Source of the DNA: a virus
UHGV virus genome: UHGV-0106589
Direction: 5' to 3' (one strand)
Length of the DNA stretch: 42,200 bases
The stretch's first letter is position 1, and each line of letters starts with the position of its first letter. The notes below the pieces were generated by a model, which did no database searches, was not told where the DNA came from, and saw nothing but the letters and a program-made list of their open reading frames with translations. Positions 1 through 42,200 of the stretch are shown here, piece after piece. The position numbers and the translations under genes are program-made.

Positions 1-124
1 CAAATGGTAGACAAAACCGCATCTATATCCCAAAAGCCACAAAAGAGGAACCGTCAAAAGACGATTCCCCTTTCTGTTTAAAAGTTCATTTTTCCTTGTA
101 AATCCAAGGTTTTTTATTAGAACT

Positions 125-157
125 TGCCTTCCTTAGCAGCCTCCTCAATCGAAACAG
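125..157. repeat. 33-nt imperfect direct repeat, left copy (29/33 identical to 1197-1229)
   Basis: tgccttccttagcagcctcctcaatcgaaacag versus tgccttcttttgcagcttcttcaatcgaaacag. On the minus strand both copies encode a terminal ...VSIEEAAKEG(K/R)F-stop. The differences are four synonymous changes plus K/R. Confidence 0.5.
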
Positions 158-250
158 GAAACCTTGATTTTAAGCCATTTCTTCCAGCAAAATGTAGGAA
201 TAAAATAGAAATAATCTACACTTAAATACTTCTAACTACTTCTATGTTGA

Positions 251-829
251 TTACGTCTCATTTTTTCTGTTTTTCAGCCATTCCCTCATTGCGTTTTCAC
301 AACATGAAAAATCACAGTATGTACGCCTTATATTTTGTGTTTCTTTTTGATGCTTATAAATTTTTTCTGCTTTTGTCAGTATTTTATCCTTAATGGTTAA
401 GCAAAAAGCATATTCCTTTTCAAATAAGTCCTGATAACGTTCATCGCCCAACTCATCAAATATAATTCTTTTGTAAGCCTCATCCGGAACAGGTATCATT
501 TTTTTGATATCCAAGACAGACAACACATGCATTTTTTTATCTTTGGAATATTCTTTGTATACATCACCCGAAATATTTACAGACTTATCTATCACTTCAT
601 ATATTAAAAAATGTTCGTCACAACTATTTTTCCACTTCTTATGTTTCTCCTTTGCCGATGTTAAAGGAATAAAATATTTACATTCTGTCATGTCTATGAT
701 AATACCAACAAAAGGTTTTATCGCATACCTATAAGAAGCATTATAATATACTTCTGAATTCTTATTATTTAGATATTCCAAATAATCAGCATCAATAGTA
801 TAGAAACCAAAATTTTCAAATTCGGCCAT
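251..829 (-). CDS. toxN: Type III toxin-antitoxin toxin, ToxN/AbiQ-family endoribonuclease
   Basis: 192-aa ORF. The motif KPFVGIIIDMTECKYFIPLTSAKEKHKKW matches the ToxN/AbiQ core (FIGIVLEI-GHKYLAPLTSPKKWH). C-terminal RTYCDFS resembles ToxN GTCDFAV. RBS AAGGAGA lies upstream. The gene sits directly downstream of tandem repeats plus a terminator, the canonical type III TA layout. The gene is AT-rich. Confidence 0.75.
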   Translation of the reverse strand: MAEFENFGFYTIDADYLEYLNNKNSEVYYNASYRYAIKPFVGIIIDMTECKYFIPLTSAKEKHKKWKNSCDEHFLIYEVIDKSVNISGDVYKEYSKDKKMHVLSVLDIKKMIPVPDEAYKRIIFDELGDERYQDLFEKEYAFCLTIKDKILTKAEKIYKHQKETQNIRRTYCDFSCCENAMREWLKNRKNET

Positions 830-840
830 AGTTCTCCTTA

Positions 841-873
841 GTCAAAAAGTGGAGAAGATTTCTCTTCTCCACT
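841..873 (-). terminator. Rho-independent attenuator between toxI repeats and toxN
   Basis: Perfect 11-bp inverted repeat agtggagaaga/tcttctccact (848-873) with a 4-nt loop, followed on the minus strand by TTTTG. This mirrors the ToxIN terminator that sets the toxI:toxN ratio. Confidence 0.6.
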
Positions 874-880
874 AAGCTTT

Positions 881-962
881 AATGTTCCACCTTTGGGATA
901 TAGGTAGCGGGACACCTTCTTTAATGCTCCACCTTTGTAATGGGTAGTGGGACACCCTCTTT
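881..962 (-). ncRNA. toxI: ToxI-like antitoxin RNA: two tandem repeats (881-922 and 923-962, about 41 nt each, about 80% identical)
   Basis: Direct repeats aatgttccacctttgggatataggtagcgggacaccttcttt and aatgctccacctttgtaatgggtagtgggacaccctcttt lie immediately upstream (in transcript orientation) of toxN and before a hairpin terminator. Confidence 0.6.
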
Positions 963-986
963 AACATTTTCCCTTTTTCTAATTCT

Positions 987-1015
987 AATATACATTAGTA
1001 TATGCGCAAAGTCAA
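987..1015 (-). promoter_or_regulatory. putative sigma-A promoter for the toxI-toxN transcript
   Basis: On the minus strand: TTGACT (reverse complement of 1010-1015), 17-nt spacer, TATATT (reverse complement of 987-992). Located about 20 nt upstream of the first repeat. Confidence 0.4.
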
Positions 1016-1196
1016 TAACTTTTGTCAAACGACAATATTATGTAAATCAATTATTCACACATCAAAATGTAGGAATATCATATAGGATTAATGTATAAAT
1101 AGTGTAGGAGTGACCCCTTATTTGCCATAAAAAGTCACTCCCAAATTACTCTTAATTACTTCTAAAAACCGCTAAATACGGCTATTTACTAGAATC

Positions 1197-1229
1197 TGCC
1201 TTCTTTTGCAGCTTCTTCAATCGAAACAG
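1197..1229. repeat. 33-nt imperfect direct repeat, right copy
   Basis: See 125-157. A second patch, caGCAAAATGTAGGAATA (187-204) versus caTCAAAATGTAGGAATA (1061-1078), and cttaaatacttcta versus cttaattacttcta are also duplicated around the toxIN cassette. Confidence 0.5.
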
Positions 1230-1789
1230 CTACAGCTACAGTAGCGCCAACCATTGGGTTATTACCCAAGCTTAGCTGTAACATTTTGCATGATTTATGT
1301 ATGCTATAGAATCATCTACAGCCCTTTATTTACTAATATATATCTACATTTCCGAAAATCTGTAAACCTATAGTATCATCATATATATTATAGACGAATC
1401 TGCTCAAGGTAGACAAATGGTTGACACTGCCTACCTTTTTATCTTTTATGATTTTCCACAGGACAAAACTAAAGCCTCCGGAGTTGCCGCTCTGGGGTTT
1501 TCTTGCTCTTTACGGCGAGCCAATCCGTTTAGGCTGTTGCCGCCTGTTCATCGTCTGTCCATCCATATTTGCAAATCCACCCTTGACACTTGCGAGGATA
1601 GGTATTATACTTTAAGTACATTGTCGATGCAAATGTATCGTGGATTTAAGCTTTATTATATTTTTTGTTATGTTGAGTTTCGACTCATATGCGGATTTTT
1701 TCCAAAAAAGCGACTGCCTTTTATTTGGTAGCCGCTTTTTTCTTTCTTTATTTCCGTAAATATTGATTTAATAGTGTATTTTACTCCGG

Positions 1790-1818
1790 TTGACAAAAAT
1801 ATATAAATAATGTAAAAT
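1790..1818 (+). promoter_or_regulatory. near-consensus sigma-A promoter (TTGACA, 17 nt, TAAAAT, with TG just upstream)
   Basis: TTGACA at 1790-1795 and TAAAAT at 1813-1818, 17-nt spacer. Lies about 30 nt upstream of RBS AGGAGGA and ATG at 1849. Confidence 0.5.
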
Positions 1819-1848
1819 AGGCTCATGATTAAAAATATAGGAGGACAT

Positions 1849-2478
1849 ATGCTTACTCAGTTTAAAGATATTTTTACTTCTCGTGAACTTAAAACACTGG
1901 CATCAATCGTGCAGGTCGGCGATGTAACCTATCGTGAGCTTATGGAAACGCAACGCCCAATGTTGGGACACCCCTATTTTGCTGACACAAGAGGACGGTT
2001 ACGGACAAAACTAGTGCAAATGCAATGTGAGATTGAGAGCCATGACCCGAAATTTCCGTTTGAATTTATTCAACGTGAGTTTCGATGCAAGCAACTGATA
2101 CCAGAACTCAGAAATAAAAATGTAATCCTTCATGTTGCACGTAGTTCAGCACCTGATTTATTACCTTATGCTTCAAAGTACAAGATCAGACTATCAAACA
2201 ATAATCATGCATTACAGAGACAGATGGTTATTGACTTTGATGAAACACCTCCTTATAGCAATGAACCTTATTATGCTATTTTAGCATTTGGAGGACGCAA
2301 TCAGACGTTTTCTGTTGTTCAGTTTCCAGAACCTGGATATACTGGTATTGCAGAATGTTTACCCCTTCCTCAAATTAGTCTAACCACTGAAAATGAAAAC
2401 ATGAAAGTATTTGAACGAAAAAAAGCTGTATTAAAGAAAGAGTTCTTAGCGCATGGAATTGAGGAGAATATTTCATGA
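1849..2478 (+). CDS. hypothetical protein (209 aa from the RBS-supported ATG; ORF track start 1825)
   Basis: RBS ataGGAGGAcat precedes ATG 1849. The stop overlaps the start of the next gene (ATGA at 2475-2478), indicating translational coupling. No recognisable motif. AT-rich. Confidence 0.55.
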   Translation: MLTQFKDIFTSRELKTLASIVQVGDVTYRELMETQRPMLGHPYFADTRGRLRTKLVQMQCEIESHDPKFPFEFIQREFRCKQLIPELRNKNVILHVARSSAPDLLPYASKYKIRLSNNNHALQRQMVIDFDETPPYSNEPYYAILAFGGRNQTFSVVQFPEPGYTGIAECLPLPQISLTTENENMKVFERKKAVLKKEFLAHGIEENIS

Positions 2479-3620
2479 CTAGCACAATTATATCTTCCCG
2501 CATAACAGAAGCTCGGGAAGCTCGTGCTAAATCTATGGAAGATTTAGCTAGTGACATTGGCGTTACAAGGCAATCTATTTCAAAATATGAACGAGGTATA
2601 GTGCGTCCTTCGCCGGAAATGCTACAGGCCATTTCATATAGTCTTGGGTTTCCTACAGAGTTTTTTTATAAATCAGAAGCAAAAATCAATGCTGGTAGTA
2701 GTCCATTATTTTTTCGCTCTAAATCTAATATTGCTAAAAAAGTTAAAACAGCATGCAAATATCAGATAAAGTGGACTGACGAAATAAAAAAACAACTCGA
2801 GAAATATGTTGATTTTATTGAACGGGATCTTCCGACAATCGACAAGAACTACGAAGATTTATCCTTTGAAGATATTGAGGAAATAGCACTAACTATTCGC
2901 AAAGATTGGGATATAGACGATGATCCGATCAATGATTTAATAGGATTATTGGAAAATAAAGGTGTTATCGTAACACAATTTGCCACAAATAGTTTCTGTG
3001 CTTTCAAAGGTATAGATGCTTTTTCTTGTTGGAAAGATGGGACACCATATATTTTGTACCATTCGATTCCTAAGAGTGCTGTACGTACTAGATTTAGCAT
3101 CTTACATGAATTAGGACATCTTATAATGCATAGTTCTATCGCAGAAGATGATTCTGTTAAAAAAGAAATCGTTGATCTAGCAGATATGCAGGCAGATCGA
3201 TTTGCAGCAGCATTTTTACTTCCGGCAACATCATTCCCAAAAGATATACGAAGCACCTCTCTAATTTCATTAGAGGCTGTTAAAAAAAAATGGGGATGTG
3301 CTATGTCCACCATTATTAAGCGTTGTGAGACACTTGAATTGCTAACGGAAAATCAAATAAATTATTTAAAGCGACAAATGACCACAAAAAAGTATTGGCA
3401 TAAAGAGCCGTTAGATGATATTTTAACAATTGCCGAACCCGAAATGATACGTGACGCAGTCTATCTTTTGATCGATAATAGGATAATTACTAAAACTGCA
3501 TTTATCAATGCATCTGGATTATCTATTGATGATTTAAAATGTATCTGTGGATTGCCAGATGAATTTTTTGACGATTTCAATCAGCGGCGCAAACCAATAT
3601 TGCGATTGGTAAAAAGCTAA
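2475..3620 (+). CDS. XRE-family HTH fused to an ImmA/IrrE-family (M78, COG2856) zinc metallopeptidase
   Basis: N-terminal HTH (EAREARAKSMEDLASDIGVTRQSISKYERG). Central HEXXH zinc motif within SILHELGHLIMH. Domain order matches the fused XRE-COG2856 family. Confidence 0.8.
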   Translation: MTSTIISSRITEAREARAKSMEDLASDIGVTRQSISKYERGIVRPSPEMLQAISYSLGFPTEFFYKSEAKINAGSSPLFFRSKSNIAKKVKTACKYQIKWTDEIKKQLEKYVDFIERDLPTIDKNYEDLSFEDIEEIALTIRKDWDIDDDPINDLIGLLENKGVIVTQFATNSFCAFKGIDAFSCWKDGTPYILYHSIPKSAVRTRFSILHELGHLIMHSSIAEDDSVKKEIVDLADMQADRFAAAFLLPATSFPKDIRSTSLISLEAVKKKWGCAMSTIIKRCETLELLTENQINYLKRQMTTKKYWHKEPLDDILTIAEPEMIRDAVYLLIDNRIITKTAFINASGLSIDDLKCICGLPDEFFDDFNQRRKPILRLVKS

Positions 3621-3772
3621 GAATATTATGATATTTCTTCCTATATAAGGGGTGACTGCCAAAAACATAGAATCAAAAGATTTTCAGGGATATTGCATTT
3701 CAGAATTGCATATGCTATAATGCCAGTAGGCAATAAAGGATATAGTTGTTCCATAGTGAGCGACAACAAAAA

Positions 3773-3808
3773 ACCCGGAGGTGTGCGAGACCTTCGGGTT
3801 TTTCTATT
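3773..3808. terminator. bidirectional Rho-independent terminator
   Basis: aaaaaCCCGGAGGtgtgcgagaCCTTCGGGtttttc: an 8-9-bp stem with one G-U pair, flanked by an A-run and a T-run. Lies between the convergent HTH-ImmA gene (+) and the small peptide gene (-). Confidence 0.5.
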
Positions 3809-3854
3809 CCTATTTTTGGAGTGGGAAGGCTTAACCCCACAGGCTGGTTACCGG

Positions 3855-3941
3855 TTATTTATCGCCGTCCAACCATTTGATGATGTAGTGGCAAACCACA
3901 CCAGCCGCGACAGCGACGATAAAGGATATAATAAATTCCAT
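3855..3941 (-). CDS. 28-aa hydrophobic peptide, Fst/Ldr-like type I toxin candidate (or small lysis-associated membrane peptide)
   Basis: MEFIISFIVAVAAGVVCHYIIKWLDGDK: a single TM helix plus a charged tail. Strong RBS GGGAGGTG sits 7 nt upstream. Convergent with the plus-strand terminator. Missing from the ORF track because it is short. Confidence 0.35.
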   Translation of the reverse strand: MEFIISFIVAVAAGVVCHYIIKWLDGDK

Positions 3942-4034
3942 AGTAAGCACCTCCCTTCCTTACCAGTATAGGAGGCGGTAACATCAGCATTATATCACAT
4001 CCATATTGTCCCTGCTACTTCTTTTTCTACCTTT

Positions 4035-20854: not shown

Positions 20855-21514
20855 TTATTCTCTTCCTAAAATGTTTCTTAATGCTGCATTGGCTCTGGCT
20901 TTTGTGTCCTCCGTCGCTGCACCGCCCGGGCCAGGCGTAGAAGACACCACTCTGGGAATACTGACGTCCTGAAACAGATATGCATTGTCCTTCTTCACCG
21001 CATCCAGGGCGGCCTTGATGTCTGCTTCCTGGTTCTTGCTGCCTTTCAGCTTTTCAACGTCCAGGAATGGCATGACGGCTTTCAGATTCCTTGGTTTATA
21101 GCCCTCTGCCGTTGCCTTTAACAGGTCATTGAAATCCCTGTCGGCAATCTGTTTCTGATACTCTGTCTCCTTGTTTGCCAGATCAGCAGTCAGCTGGGTA
21201 ATCTTGCCCTGAAGTTCCTGGACATTTACTCCCTCAAAGCTCTTGAGCGTAGTCTGGGCCGCCGCAAGCTGGGTCTTGTAGTTGTCCCGGTCCTGCTTAA
21301 TCCCGTTAAGCTCCTTACCATACTCGGCCATTACATAATCGATCTGTTCCTGCGTCAGACCCTTTGCCTGTAAATCTTCTGTTTTCATTCCCTGTGTCCT
21401 TTCTTTGTATTGATTCGCCATTAGGTTATTTATAGGTGTGTAACCATCCACCAAACGAATGACTGTTTTAGGTCTCATCATCTGACCGAAAAAAGGCGTA
21501 AAAATAACACCCAA
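20855..21514 (-). CDS. scaffolding protein (start uncertain: TTG at 21514 or an internal Met)
   Basis: Coiled-coil, charged, Gln/Lys-rich protein immediately upstream of the capsid gene. Confidence 0.65.
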   Translation of the reverse strand: MGVIFTPFFGQMMRPKTVIRLVDGYTPINNLMANQYKERTQGMKTEDLQAKGLTQEQIDYVMAEYGKELNGIKQDRDNYKTQLAAAQTTLKSFEGVNVQELQGKITQLTADLANKETEYQKQIADRDFNDLLKATAEGYKPRNLKAVMPFLDVEKLKGSKNQEADIKAALDAVKKDNAYLFQDVSIPRVVSSTPGPGGAATEDTKARANAALRNILGRE

Positions 21515-28710: not shown

Positions 28711-28783
<73 letters not shown>

Positions 28784-40979: not shown

Positions 40980-42170
40980 ATGGGACAATTAAGAACACGC
41001 AAGCGCGGAGCAACCTGGGAGTGGTCTTTTGAGGGAGCACGAATCAATGGCAAACGTAATTCCATCAGCAAGGGCGGATACCGCACTAAGGCGGAAGCTC
41101 TGGCCGCTGGAACACAGGCAAAGGCGGAGTATGATAATGCCGGATCCCACTTTGTACCATCTGAGATATCTGTATCTGATTTCTATGAACTTTGGTTGGA
41201 AAAATATTGCAAAACAAATCTCAAAATAGATACCTACTTGAATTATAAGAAAAAAGTATCTCTCCACATCACTCCGATTCTTGGAAGCTATTATTTAAAA
41301 TCTCTAACCCCTGCCATTATACAGGGATTCATAAATGATAAATTCAATGCAGGGTATAGCCGAAATACGCTATCCGTGCTCAAAGGGCTTCTGACAGGTG
41401 CCCTTGACTATGCCGTAGAGCCTATGCAATTCATTAAATACAATCCTGCCAAAAGCGCAAAATTGCCACCCAAAAGGGCAACTTCCCAGATACCTACACG
41501 AAAAAAGATTCGTACTCCTATATCCGCTGAGGAATGGAGCATTATTATCGGCAGATTCCCGGAAGGGCATTCCTGCCATATCCCTCTACAGCTTGCATAC
41601 CGATGCGGTTTACGGCTTGGGGAATCGTTCGCGCTTACCTGGGACGATATTGATTTTGAGAACAGCACTTTGAGTGTCAATCAGCAAATTCAGAATGTAA
41701 ACGGCGCTTGGGTTTTCAGTAATCCGAAATATGATAGTTTCCGAACGATTGAATTAGATGAAAAAATGCTCAGTCTGTTGCGTAATACATACAACCACCA
41801 AGTTAAAGCAAAAGAATTTTATGAACAGTATTATACTCAACTCTATGTGGACGATCAATGCGTCCTGAATGCCGATGAACGCGGAAAGCCTATTCATATG
41901 ATAAACTGTCGTGAAAATGGTACTTATATCCAACCCAGAGTTATGCAGCACTGCTGCCGTGTGATTCATTACAATCTTGGCTTTAAAGATTTTGACTACC
42001 ATTCCCTCAGGCATACTCATGCAACTATGCTGCTGGAGGCCGGTGCCGATATAAAAGACGTTCAGAAAAGATTAGGGCACAAACATATTGATGTTACTCT
42101 TGATATATACAGCCATGCAACCCCTCGCATGGCCGCACATACGATTGATATTTTAAATCAAATCGAATAA
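40980..42170 (+). CDS. int: tyrosine-type site-specific integrase
   Basis: RBS AGGAGG sits 7 nt upstream. C-terminal catalytic region with R...HxxR...Y (LRHTHATMLLEAGADIKDVQKRLGHKHIDVTLDIYSH). Confidence 0.9.
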   Translation: MGQLRTRKRGATWEWSFEGARINGKRNSISKGGYRTKAEALAAGTQAKAEYDNAGSHFVPSEISVSDFYELWLEKYCKTNLKIDTYLNYKKKVSLHITPILGSYYLKSLTPAIIQGFINDKFNAGYSRNTLSVLKGLLTGALDYAVEPMQFIKYNPAKSAKLPPKRATSQIPTRKKIRTPISAEEWSIIIGRFPEGHSCHIPLQLAYRCGLRLGESFALTWDDIDFENSTLSVNQQIQNVNGAWVFSNPKYDSFRTIELDEKMLSLLRNTYNHQVKAKEFYEQYYTQLYVDDQCVLNADERGKPIHMINCRENGTYIQPRVMQHCCRVIHYNLGFKDFDYHSLRHTHATMLLEAGADIKDVQKRLGHKHIDVTLDIYSHATPRMAAHTIDILNQIE

Positions 42171-42200
42171 TCATTTGTCTACCACTCAAAAAAGGGTTGA

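What the first reader, a model, noticed from the sequence alone, without database searches (positions are those of the whole stretch)
100..1320. Complete type III toxin-antitoxin (ToxIN/AbiQ-like) locus with only two antitoxin repeats, embedded between patchy duplicated flanks
The locus has a ToxN/AbiQ-family toxin (251-829), two ~41-nt tandem repeats (881-962), a perfect 11-bp-stem terminator (848-873) and a candidate promoter (987-1015), reproducing the canonical toxI-terminator-toxN architecture of a phage abortive-infection system. Sequence either side is duplicated in patches. A 33-mer is 29/33 identical at 125-157 and 1197-1229. On the minus strand both copies encode VSIEEAAKEG(K/R)F-stop, and all differences but one are synonymous, suggesting a coding 3' end under selection. 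The 18-mer caGCAAAATGTAGGAATA is found at 187-204 and 1061-1078. A further short patch is cttaaatacttcta at 231-244 versus cttaattacttcta at 1151-1164. This suggests the cassette was inserted into, or is exchangeable within, a duplicated locus (a defence hotspot flank or a gene-fragment duplication).
Basis: partly seen in the sequence, partly recalled or inferred. Interest (0 to 1): 0.65.

Follow-up and report, generated by a model that had tools for sequence, protein, structure and literature searches.

The report
ToxIN on an integrase-less att-flanked cassette
This is an ordinary type III toxin-antitoxin (ToxIN) anti-phage locus, but it sits on a 1,072-bp insertion with no integrase, bounded by phage attachment-site repeats, in the end of a conserved bacterial gene where several temperate phages, including the one filling this window, also integrate.

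Summary

**The locus.** The toxin is a ToxN/AbiQ protein (Pfam E 5.5e-42, and its predicted fold matches only ToxN/AbiQ structures). The two 40-42-nt repeats, the terminator and the promoter are conserved in relatives down to 58% toxin identity. The repeat variation supports a pseudoknot. Two repeats is normal: the published range is 1.9-5.6.

**The duplicated flanks.** These are not a pre-existing duplicated locus. toxIN belongs to the host, labelled Clostridium sp. AT4 / Enterocloster sp., and not to the 41-kb prophage that fills the rest of the window. The repeated 'VSIEEAAKEG(K/R)F-stop' is the 3' end of a GGGtGRT-family gene.
- A strain without toxIN shows the gene ending in the 113-157 copy, followed by window 112→1.
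- toxIN-positive strains carry an exact 1,072-bp insertion (window 158-1229) bounded by this 45-nt repeat.
- The shorter patches are motifs that a phage family found in a viral-contig collection carries at the same distances from its attachment-site core.

**Spread.** The cassette is 92-99% identical in another species whose flanks are only 77-81% identical. It also occurs at an unrelated gene. It is therefore a phage-derived, integrase-less relic of the CIME (cis-mobilizable element) type. Whether it still moves is untested.

The parts
1..112 (-). Native sequence downstream of the GGGtGRT-family gene, with terminator-like hairpins at 109-94 and 74-41. The window prophage's integrase-proximal attP arm is its homologue: window 1-157 as a whole is 98% identical to attP.
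   Evidence: It directly follows the gene in the toxIN-free strain L175. Window 1-157 is 98% identical to attP L012 6222-6378 and attL L011.
113..157 (-). Copy A of the 45-nt repeat D1. This is the displaced native 3' end of the GGGtGRT gene (…VSIEEAAKEGKF, stop at 117-119) and acts as the attR-type end of the toxIN cassette. It keeps only 7 nt (151-157) of the 46-nt core used by the window prophage.
158..250 (-). Right arm of the cassette. It contains patch D5' (185-207, TATTCCTACA motif on the toxN strand) and patch D3' (217-244, two AGAAGT motifs). Bases 156-207 are identical over 52 nt to the arm end of a phage family in the viral-contig collection (here 'Z-type').
251..829 (-). toxN, encoding a 192-aa ToxN/AbiQ-family endoribonuclease toxin.
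   Evidence: PF13958 E 5.5e-42. PDB sequence hits are 4ATO, 2XD0, 7D8O and 4GLK only. The AlphaFold model has pLDDT 91, and the only Foldseek matches below E 0.3 are those same four structures.
848..873 (-). Intrinsic terminator between toxI and toxN (11-bp stem, 4-nt loop, T-run). It is inferred to set the antitoxin:toxin ratio.
   Evidence: An equivalent hairpin sits at the same place in relatives.
877..964 (-). toxI antitoxin repeats. R1 is 958→919 (40 nt), R2 is 918→877 (42 nt), and a 6-7-nt partial unit (964→959) supplies the upstream junction.
   Evidence: In an alignment of 53 distinct units, both proposed pseudoknot helices pair in 100% of cells, with C-G↔U-A and A-U/G-U/G-C exchanges.
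987..1015 (-). Candidate sigma-70-type promoter of the toxI-toxN transcript (TTGACT-17-TATATT).
   Evidence: A -35/-10 pair with 17-nt spacing is present in all relatives printed.
1016..1184 (-). Left arm of the cassette. It contains patch D5 (1060-1082), a hairpin (1143-1105) and patch D3 (1147-1174). Its motif positions match the integrase-side arm of Z-type phage attP.
1185..1229 (-). Copy B of D1. This is the element-borne 3' end now terminating the GGGtGRT gene (…VSIEEAAKEGRF, stop at 1189-1191) and acts as the attL-type end of the cassette.
1218..1263 (.). A 46-nt stretch identical between attP of the window prophage and the host site. This is the crossover region of the prophage's left junction (attR). 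Host similarity ends at about 1268.

Best explanation
**What the locus is.** Window 251-1015 (minus strand) is a canonical type III toxin-antitoxin / abortive-infection module of the toxIN family.

**How it most likely works (inferred from the family).**
1. A constitutive promoter transcribes two toxI repeats.
2. A terminator lets only some transcripts read into toxN.
3. ToxN, an endoribonuclease, cuts the repeat precursor at the conserved A-rich junctions into 40-42-nt pseudoknots.
4. These pseudoknots bind and silence ToxN.
5. When an infecting phage shuts off host transcription, the labile RNA decays. Free ToxN then degrades RNA and aborts the infection.

**Where it sits (shown here).**
- The module is not part of the prophage in the window.
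- It is the sole cargo of a 1,072-bp integrase-less element (window 158-1229).
- The element inserted by site-specific recombination into the last 45 nt of a host GGGtGRT-family gene.
- The insertion duplicated that gene end: copy B (1185-1229) stays attached to the gene, and copy A (113-157) is displaced.
- The two cassette ends carry the arm motifs of a temperate-phage family, here called 'Z-type'. Its integrase is a zinc-ribbon tyrosine recombinase.
- The cassette is therefore a deletion derivative of such an element that kept attL, attR and both arms. This is what defines a CIME (cis-mobilizable element).

**Inferred.** The cassette spread between Lachnospiraceae by hitch-hiking on Z-type elements that integrate next to it. 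The window's own phage ('W-type') later integrated in the 46-nt core just upstream of copy B.
For: **toxIN identity.** Pfam, PADLOC and PDB sequence matches and the predicted fold all point to ToxN/AbiQ. Residues aligned to ToxN_Pa Y29/K33/T52/S53/K55 are Y35/K38/T57/S58/K60. K38, S58 and K60 are invariant in 26 homologues. The promoter / repeats / hairpin / toxN order is conserved in 80 metagenome loci with 58-100% toxin identity, carrying 1-3 repeats and mostly 2. In the proposed pseudoknot, every cell pairs. No shuffle out of 500 reaches the observed covariation, and slid registers pair in only 25-75% of cells.

**Host, not phage.**
- The exact ToxN lies upstream of Asp23-nusB-xseAB in all 10 places shown. 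In six of them the upstream neighbour is the intact GGGtGRT gene with no prophage, and in the other four it is a phage or other element.
- The empty site L002 matches window 1268→1 at 99.3%.
- The circular 41-kb phage contig L012 joins the integrase arm directly to window 1185 onward, without toxIN.

**Insertion.** L175 is a toxIN-free strain of the same species, with flanks 99.3-99.7% identical. Its gene ends in the copy-A-type D1, followed by window 112→1 and Asp23. L002 differs from it by exactly 1,072 nt, with a 43-nt overlap.

**Phage-derived arms.** The cassette's right end is identical over 52 nt to the arm end of 16 IMG/VR contigs. Measured from the start of D1:
- the circularised cassette has TCCTACA at -42, +120 and +155, and AGAAGT at -86, -76 and +66;
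- Z-phage attP has TCCTACA at -42, +120 and +145, and AGAAGT at +66 and +76.

**Spread as a unit.**
- L078 and L106 have flanks 77-81% identical but the cassette 92-99% identical, with the breakpoints inside D1.
- L109 and L121 carry the same cassette fused to an unrelated PGA_cap gene.
- Tandem arrangements with Z-type elements occur in the same species (L001, L005, L096, L099, L103, L108).
Against: - No experiment supports toxicity, antitoxicity or phage resistance.
- The first pseudoknot helix has only one compensatory change. I derived the structure from these same sequences.
- No Rfam family matches the repeats.
- No excised circle and no phage carrying this cassette was found. A ToxN protein-pattern scan of IMG/VR returned only a 60% homologue, and an exact 22-nt cassette-arm pattern returned only one provirus end.
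- The integrase that made the insertion is inferred from arm similarity. It was not identified next to this cassette.
- Cross-species similarity could in principle come from transfer of larger segments followed by homologous recombination.
Confidence: 0.85

Rival explanations
1. toxIN is a cargo gene (moron) of the prophage that fills the window. The 157-bp repeat (window 1-157, repeated just after 42200) would then mark the true ends of that phage.
For: The window starts exactly at the first base of the repeat and ends just before its second copy. Two short metagenome contigs, L101 and L113, read phage arm / core / copy B / toxIN / copy A / arm / integrase. This joins window 1 to window 42200.
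Against: The circular phage contig L012 (41,156 bp) lacks toxIN. Phage-free strains carry toxIN at the same place. Of the 24 contigs read for the exact integrase, the three distinct places shown have integrase next to the GGGtGRT gene or next to attP, never next to toxN. L101 and L113 are short-read contigs crossing a repeat. They may be assembly-graph walks or double lysogens.
Confidence: 0.07
2. The cassette is only an immobile scar of one ancient prophage. Its occurrence in several species reflects vertical descent, or homologous replacement of larger segments, and not movement of the 1-kb unit.
For: It has no recombinase and no excised form was seen. Decayed prophages between duplicated ends of this gene exist elsewhere, for example L053 with an integrase fragment, a holin-like ORF and an amidase.
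Against: The cassette is present or absent within one species, and the native site is clean where it is absent. Cassette identity of 92-99% contrasts with 77-81% in the flanks, and the breakpoints lie inside D1. The same cassette ends occur at an unrelated PGA_cap gene.
Confidence: 0.25
3. One reading: the two flanks are a pre-existing duplicated locus, with two short genes or gene fragments both under selection, inside which defence cassettes are exchanged.
For: The differences between the copies are mostly synonymous. Other Lachnospiraceae hold different cargo between duplicated ends of the same gene, for example NYN / HEC-09-like in L067.
Against: The toxIN-free strain has a single copy. 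The synonymous pattern is explained if each copy was a working gene end in a different lineage, one host and one mobile element. The ORF at 1189-1284 is a chimera of host and phage DNA.
Confidence: 0.05

Closest known systems
ToxIN of Bacillus thuringiensis pAW63 (PDB 4ATO) and ToxIN of Pectobacterium atrosepticum pECA1039 (PDB 2XD0)
   Same: They share the Pfam family and the fold (TM-score 0.67-0.82). The promoter / tandem repeats / terminator / toxN order is the same. Each repeat can form an H-type pseudoknot. The 5' part of the repeat (AGGUG…GCUACC) resembles ToxI_Pa, as I recall that sequence from memory.
   Different: Protein identity is only 22-25%. The repeats are 40-42 nt in about 2 copies, against 36 nt × 5.5 in P. 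atrosepticum. The locus is chromosomal, on an att-flanked cassette, and not on a plasmid. Two non-identical repeat types are kept in a fixed order.
AbiQ/antiQ of Lactococcus lactis pSRQ900 (PDB 4GLK)
   Same: It belongs to the ToxN/AbiQ family (PADLOC AbiQ 1.2e-29). It also has few repeats, 2.8 as I recall from memory.
   Different: It is plasmid-borne, and its sequence similarity is the lowest of the four solved relatives (E 3e-07).
CIMEs (cis-mobilizable elements) derived from ICESt1/ICESt3 of Streptococcus thermophilus
   Same: By definition these elements have lost their integration and transfer genes but keep attL and attR. They can also sit in tandem with a related element (PMC5704250). 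This cassette meets that definition and is found in tandem with related elements.
   Different: This element derives from a temperate phage and not from a conjugative element. It is only 1.07 kb, and its whole cargo is one type III TA module. Mobilisation has not been shown.
Phages that integrate in the 3' end of a protein gene and carry a replacement gene end, such as phage 21 and e14 in E. coli icd (from memory)
   Same: Integration duplicates the gene's 3' end. The element supplies a near-synonymous substitute tail, and the native tail is displaced.
   Different: The target here is a GGGtGRT-family gene of Lachnospiraceae. A full-text search for 'GGGtGRT' returned 13 papers; from the 8 titles and abstracts listed, none concerns phage integration, and I did not read them. 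At least two integrase types use adjacent parts of the same 90 nt.

Membership tests
Type III TA, toxIN family (ToxN/AbiQ) | Toxin matches the ToxN_toxin domain | tested here: met
   PF13958 E 5.5e-42, 144 bits against a cut-off of 25, profile positions 2-159 of 159. PADLOC AbiQ 1.2e-29.
Type III TA, toxIN family (ToxN/AbiQ) | ToxN fold | tested here: met
   The AlphaFold model has pLDDT 91.3. The Foldseek PDB top four are 4ATO, 7D8O, 2XD0 and 4GLK (E 2e-09 to 4e-07). The next hit is at E 0.35.
Type III TA, toxIN family (ToxN/AbiQ) | Catalytic residues conserved (ToxN_Pa Y29, K33, T52, S53, K55; their roles recalled from memory) | tested here: met
   They align to Y35, K38, T57, S58 and K60. 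K38, S58 and K60 are invariant in 26 homologues.
Type III TA, toxIN family (ToxN/AbiQ) | Tandem direct repeats upstream of the toxin on the same strand | tested here: met
   877-964, 2.1 copies of 40-42 nt. Conserved in relatives with 1-3 copies. Within the published range of 1.9-5.6 copies and 31-62 nt.
Type III TA, toxIN family (ToxN/AbiQ) | Palindromic terminator between the repeats and the toxin | tested here: met
   873-848, 11-bp stem plus T-run. Conserved in position in relatives.
Type III TA, toxIN family (ToxN/AbiQ) | Repeat RNA folds into a pseudoknot | tested here: met
   In silico only. Two interleaved 4-bp helices pair in 100% of 424 cells, with 19 double changes. No shuffle out of 500 reaches the observed covariation. 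RNAalifold independently finds the second helix. The first helix has a single compensatory change.
Type III TA, toxIN family (ToxN/AbiQ) | Toxin is toxic, the RNA neutralises it, and the locus aborts phage infection | not testable with these tools
   Needs expression assays and phage challenge.
cptIN family | Toxin related to CptN | tested here: not met
   The PDB sequence search at E ≤ 0.01 and the fold search return only ToxN/AbiQ chains.
CIME (cis-mobilizable element) | Bounded by attL and attR direct repeats at a site used by integrative elements | tested here: met
   45-nt D1 copies at 113-157 and 1185-1229. Each is a host/element hybrid of the kind site-specific integration produces. Phages integrate at the same gene end.
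CIME (cis-mobilizable element) | No integrase or transfer genes of its own | tested here: met
   Between the repeats, toxN is the only ORF with a family match. The other listed ORFs are at most 76 aa, and those over 35 aa lie antisense to toxN or toxI; they were not searched against any library.
CIME (cis-mobilizable element) | Derived from an identifiable integrative element | tested here: met
   52-nt identity to the Z-phage arm end. Arm motifs sit at the same distances from the core (-42, +66, +120).
CIME (cis-mobilizable element) | Found in tandem (accretion) with a related functional element | tested here: met
   Z-type elements abut copy B in L001, L005, L096, L099, L103 and L108. Whether these elements are intact was not checked.
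CIME (cis-mobilizable element) | Excises or transfers when a helper integrase is present | not testable with these tools
   Only indirect evidence exists: presence/absence within a species, cross-species identity, and a secondary site.
Cargo gene of the window's prophage | Present in the excised or circular phage genome | tested here: not met
   The circular contig L012 lacks toxIN. Phage-free strains have it.

The most novel reading that the evidence does not exclude
The 1,072-bp cassette may still be an active hitch-hiker: a minimal phage-parasitic element whose only gene is an anti-phage toxIN.

Z-type temperate phages integrate next to it. Their integrase could then occasionally recombine the outer att sites, so that phage and cassette excise, package and re-integrate together. 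This would spread toxIN among gut Lachnospiraceae.

A second route is homologous recombination between the 157-bp repeats flanking [toxIN + W-type prophage]. That would load toxIN onto the phage in this window. Contigs L101 and L113 show the junction this route predicts.
Probability: 0.3. Interest if true: 0.6.

Novelty: new member of a known kind. Interest (0 to 1): 0.4.

Why it matters
The toxIN locus itself adds little. NCBI already annotates this exact protein as a ToxN/AbiQ toxin (WP_418926365.1).

The useful result is the context:
- The 3' end of a highly conserved GGGtGRT-family gene is an integration hotspot used by at least two integrase types in gut Lachnospiraceae.
- A defence module persists there on a 1-kb element that has lost everything except its att sites and arm motifs, yet is shared between species.
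- If mobilisation were shown, this would be a very small example of how anti-phage genes travel on the integration machinery of temperate phages.
- It would also explain how phages pick up defence cargo next to attP.

There is a practical caution as well. Prophage boundaries drawn from direct repeats here wrongly include a host defence cassette.

Tried and rejected
1. **Rfam.** Neither gathering thresholds nor permissive E-values gave a ToxI family match. The only hits were insignificant ones such as rli28.
2. **Public phage and plasmid records.** Megablast of window 1-4000 against both collections, and of 16000-40000 against the phage collection, gave no match.
3. **The 31-aa ORF at 1189-1284 as a small toxin or peptide gene.** Rejected. 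It is the tail of the GGGtGRT gene cut by the prophage.
4. **Copy A as a relic attL of the window's phage type, or as the attP-like junction of a decayed tandem lysogen.** Both rejected once the toxIN-free strain L175 showed that window 1-157 is the native gene end plus its terminator.
5. **cptIN membership.** Rejected.
6. **A phage carrying this cassette in IMG/VR.** A protein-pattern scan found only a 60% ToxN homologue (L014). A cassette-arm pattern found only the end of a W-type provirus (L201).
7. **Looking up the integrase from the GTG start.** This failed. The ATG at 40980 is the start on record.
8. **Reaching cassette-free strains through an Asp23 homologue search.** The search returned only representatives on short contigs. 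The exact-sequence cluster look-up gave a usable id.
Full report
**1. Observation**

The minus-strand ORF at 251-829 encodes 192 aa. It matches Pfam ToxN_toxin at E 5.5e-42 over the whole profile and PADLOC AbiQ at 1.2e-29.

Upstream on the same strand lie:
- a hairpin with an 11-bp stem and a T-run (873-848);
- a tandem repeat of period 40-42 with 2.1 copies (877-964);
- a TTGACT-17-TATATT promoter-like site (1015-987).

The flank repeats are real. The large one is 108-157 vs 1180-1229 (50 nt, 82%). The two short ones are 185-207 vs 1060-1082 and 217-244 vs 1147-1174. I call these D1, D5 and D3.

**2. The toxin-antitoxin module**

*Toxin.* Against solved structures, the protein finds only ToxN of B. 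thuringiensis, P. atrosepticum and E. coli, and AbiQ. It does not find CptN. An AlphaFold model (pLDDT 91.3) has those same four chains as its only Foldseek matches (TM-score 0.67-0.82). Residues aligned with ToxN_Pa Y29/K33/T52/S53/K55 are conserved. Their catalytic role is from my memory of the ToxN literature.

*Architecture in relatives.* A scan of metagenome contigs with an alignment of 26 homologues gave 80 loci with 58-100% toxin identity. Almost all have the same order: promoter, one to three repeats (mostly two), hairpin, ribosome-binding site, toxN.

*Repeat structure.* The 53 distinct repeat units align over 42 columns. Two interleaved helices form an H-type pseudoknot: GGUG/UACC (columns 3-6 with 13-16) and CCAC/GUGG (columns 9-12 with 29-32).
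- Every one of the 424 cells is a standard pair.
- One pair switches C-G to U-A in 16 units. Another shows A-U, G-U and G-C.
- No shuffle out of 500 reaches the observed covariation.
- Sliding the partners by one to three columns drops pairing to 25-75%.
- RNAalifold finds the second helix on its own.
- Caveats: I derived the structure from these sequences, and the first helix has only one compensatory change.

*Other checks.* Rfam has no match. The toxIN family is published as having 1.9-5.6 repeats of 31-62 nt (PMC3401426, Table 2), so 'only two repeats' is ordinary.

*Mechanism.* The working model is taken from the family and was not tested here. It comprises processing of the repeat RNA by ToxN, inhibition of ToxN by the processed pseudoknots, and release of ToxN when transcription stops during infection.

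**3. What the window is**

The window is mostly a temperate phage. It has an amidase endolysin, tail genes, a tape-measure protein, major head protein, portal, terminase and an integrase at 40980-42170.

toxIN is not part of this phage.
- In all 10 places shown for the exact ToxN, the gene lies upstream of Asp23-nusB-xseA-xseB.
- The other side varies. In six places the neighbour is an intact GGGtGRT-family gene (PF14057) with no prophage. In the other four it is a phage or other element.
- The phage-free locus L002 matches window 1268→1 at 99.3%.
- A 41,156-bp contig with the same integrase (L012) runs from the integrase straight into window 1185-1951 and lacks toxIN. It is the circular phage, and it gives attP.
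- L011 gives the other junction: integrase, then the full 336-aa GGGtGRT gene.
- attP and the host share a perfect 46-nt stretch (window 1218-1263).

The ORF at 1189-1284 is therefore the gene's tail severed by the prophage.

The host is labelled Clostridium sp. AT4 / Enterocloster sp. in public records.

**4. The duplicated flanks**

*The native site.* The phage's integrase-proximal arm is 98% identical to window 1-157. This looked at first like a relic of an earlier prophage.

The exact host Asp23 protein led to a decisive comparison. L175 is a genome of the same species, with flanks 99.3-99.7% identical, and it has no toxIN. Its GGGtGRT gene ends in the copy-A form of D1. That end is followed directly by the sequence of window 112→1 and then Asp23.

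L002 differs from L175 by exactly 1,072 nt, with a 43-nt overlap at D1. So:
- window 1-157 is the native gene end plus its terminator;
- window 158-1229 is an insertion bounded by D1;
- copy B is native on its 5' side and element-type on its 3' side, and copy A is the reverse, as expected for attL and attR.

The mostly synonymous differences arise because each copy was a working gene end in a different lineage.

*The source of the arms.* Other elements in the same species (L005, L001) join the host inside D1. Their arm ends resemble window 158-193.

A pattern from that arm found 16 IMG/VR contigs of one phage family, which I call Z-type. Their arm end is identical over 52 nt to window 207→156. 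Five of them show attP: arm, D1, a second arm, then a 416-aa tyrosine integrase with an N-terminal zinc ribbon.

D5 (TATTCCTACA) and D3 (AGAAGT) are motifs repeated on both arms of that attP. The table gives positions counted from the start of D1.

| Sequence | TCCTACA | AGAAGT |
|---|---|---|
| Circularised cassette | -42, +120, +155 | -86, -76, +66 |
| Z-phage attP | -42, +120, +145 | +66, +76 |

I read these motifs as arm-type recombinase-binding sites. That is an inference.

The cassette is thus a miniature Z-type element that kept both att ends and both arms but lost its integrase. This matches the definition of a CIME (PMC5704250).

**5. Evidence that the cassette has moved as a unit**

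- In L078 and L106 (another species), the neighbouring gene and the GGGtGRT body are 77-81% identical to the host. The cassette arms, toxI and the post-toxN arm are 97-99% identical, and toxN is 92-98%. The breakpoints lie inside D1.
- In L109 and L121, the same cassette is fused to the 3' end of an unrelated PGA_cap gene. It has 28-nt and about 21-nt D1 remnants.
- L107 has the cassette between an L001-like element and a different downstream sequence.
- L110, L111 and L062 have degenerate versions.

The gene end is a hotspot more widely.
- L053 holds a decayed prophage between two gene ends: an integrase fragment, a holin-like ORF and an amidase.
- L067 holds a NYN-domain gene that matches the candidate defence family HEC-09.
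- L044 holds an 800-nt insert with no obvious gene.

A full-text search for 'GGGtGRT' returned 13 papers. From the 8 titles and abstracts listed, none concerns phage integration; I did not read them.

**6. Unresolved**

Contigs L101 and L113 read phage arm / core / copy B / toxIN / copy A / arm / integrase. They join window 1 to window 42200. Three readings are possible:
- a circle formed by recombination between the 157-bp repeats, meaning a phage that captured toxIN;
- a double lysogen;
- an assembly walk through a repeat.

The window begins and ends exactly at that repeat. This suggests its limits were set by a repeat-based rule, which would explain why host toxIN sits inside a 'phage' window. 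No phage carrying this cassette was found in IMG/VR.

**7. Verdict**

The toxIN locus is a new member of a well-known family and is already annotated as such. The flank pattern is fully explained by site-specific insertion. The cassette is a neat, phage-derived, CIME-like carrier of a defence module, but whether it is still mobile is untested.

Noticed in passing
window 1825-3620 (+): A two-gene module sits in the prophage arm next to attR. The second protein (2475-3620; HTH plus M78 peptidase) matches PADLOC RmrA at 7e-105. The first (1825-2478) matches RmrT weakly, at 1e-08. This looks like a RosmerTA-like phage-borne defence system. A related phage at the same site (L009, L101) lacks it.
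   Followed up: partly
window 6-15, 1408-1417 and 42174-42183 (reverse): GGTAGACAAA occurs three times, twice inverted in the integrase-side arm and once in the other arm of this prophage's attP. These are its only occurrences in the 42.2-kb window. They may be arm-type sites of the window phage's integrase.
   Followed up: partly
L101 1862-4734 and L113 1533-4690: These contigs join toxIN / copy A / arm directly to the integrase, so window 1 is contiguous with window 42200. They could reflect capture of toxIN by the phage through the 157-bp repeats, a double lysogen, or an assembly artefact.
   Followed up: partly
window 1 and 42200: The window limits coincide exactly with the edges of a 157-bp, 98% identical direct repeat. 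The second copy starts just beyond the window. This suggests repeat-based delimitation that swept a host cassette into a 'phage' window.
   Followed up: partly
window 877-958, and alignment A2: The two toxI repeats are not equivalent. Across the clade, the upstream unit has a short loop (36-40 nt). The downstream unit has a long loop (42 nt) and, in distant relatives, a paired C-G→U-A change. The order is fixed, which hints at two specialised antitoxin units.
   Followed up: partly
window 21422-21487 (-) and 28711-28783 (-): Rfam GP20-b RNA (44 bits, above the gathering score) lies upstream of the head-gene region. A tRNA gene also lies inside the prophage.
   Followed up: no
L196 1652-2848 (+): Z-type phages encode a reverse transcriptase (RVT_1, E 1.6e-17) about 1.6 kb from the attP core (D1). 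It may belong to a diversity-generating retroelement or a defence RT.
   Followed up: no
L097 1131-2100: In one strain the GGGtGRT gene body is only 86% identical, while the upstream gene is 97% and toxIN 100% identical. This suggests replacement of the gene itself, perhaps through traffic at this hotspot.
   Followed up: no
L067 5471-6115; L053 5150-7373; L109 872-3200: Other occupants sit next to duplicated GGGtGRT gene ends: a NYN / HEC-09-like gene (L067) and a decayed prophage (L053). The toxIN cassette also occurs at a secondary site, in a PGA_cap gene (L109).
   Followed up: partly
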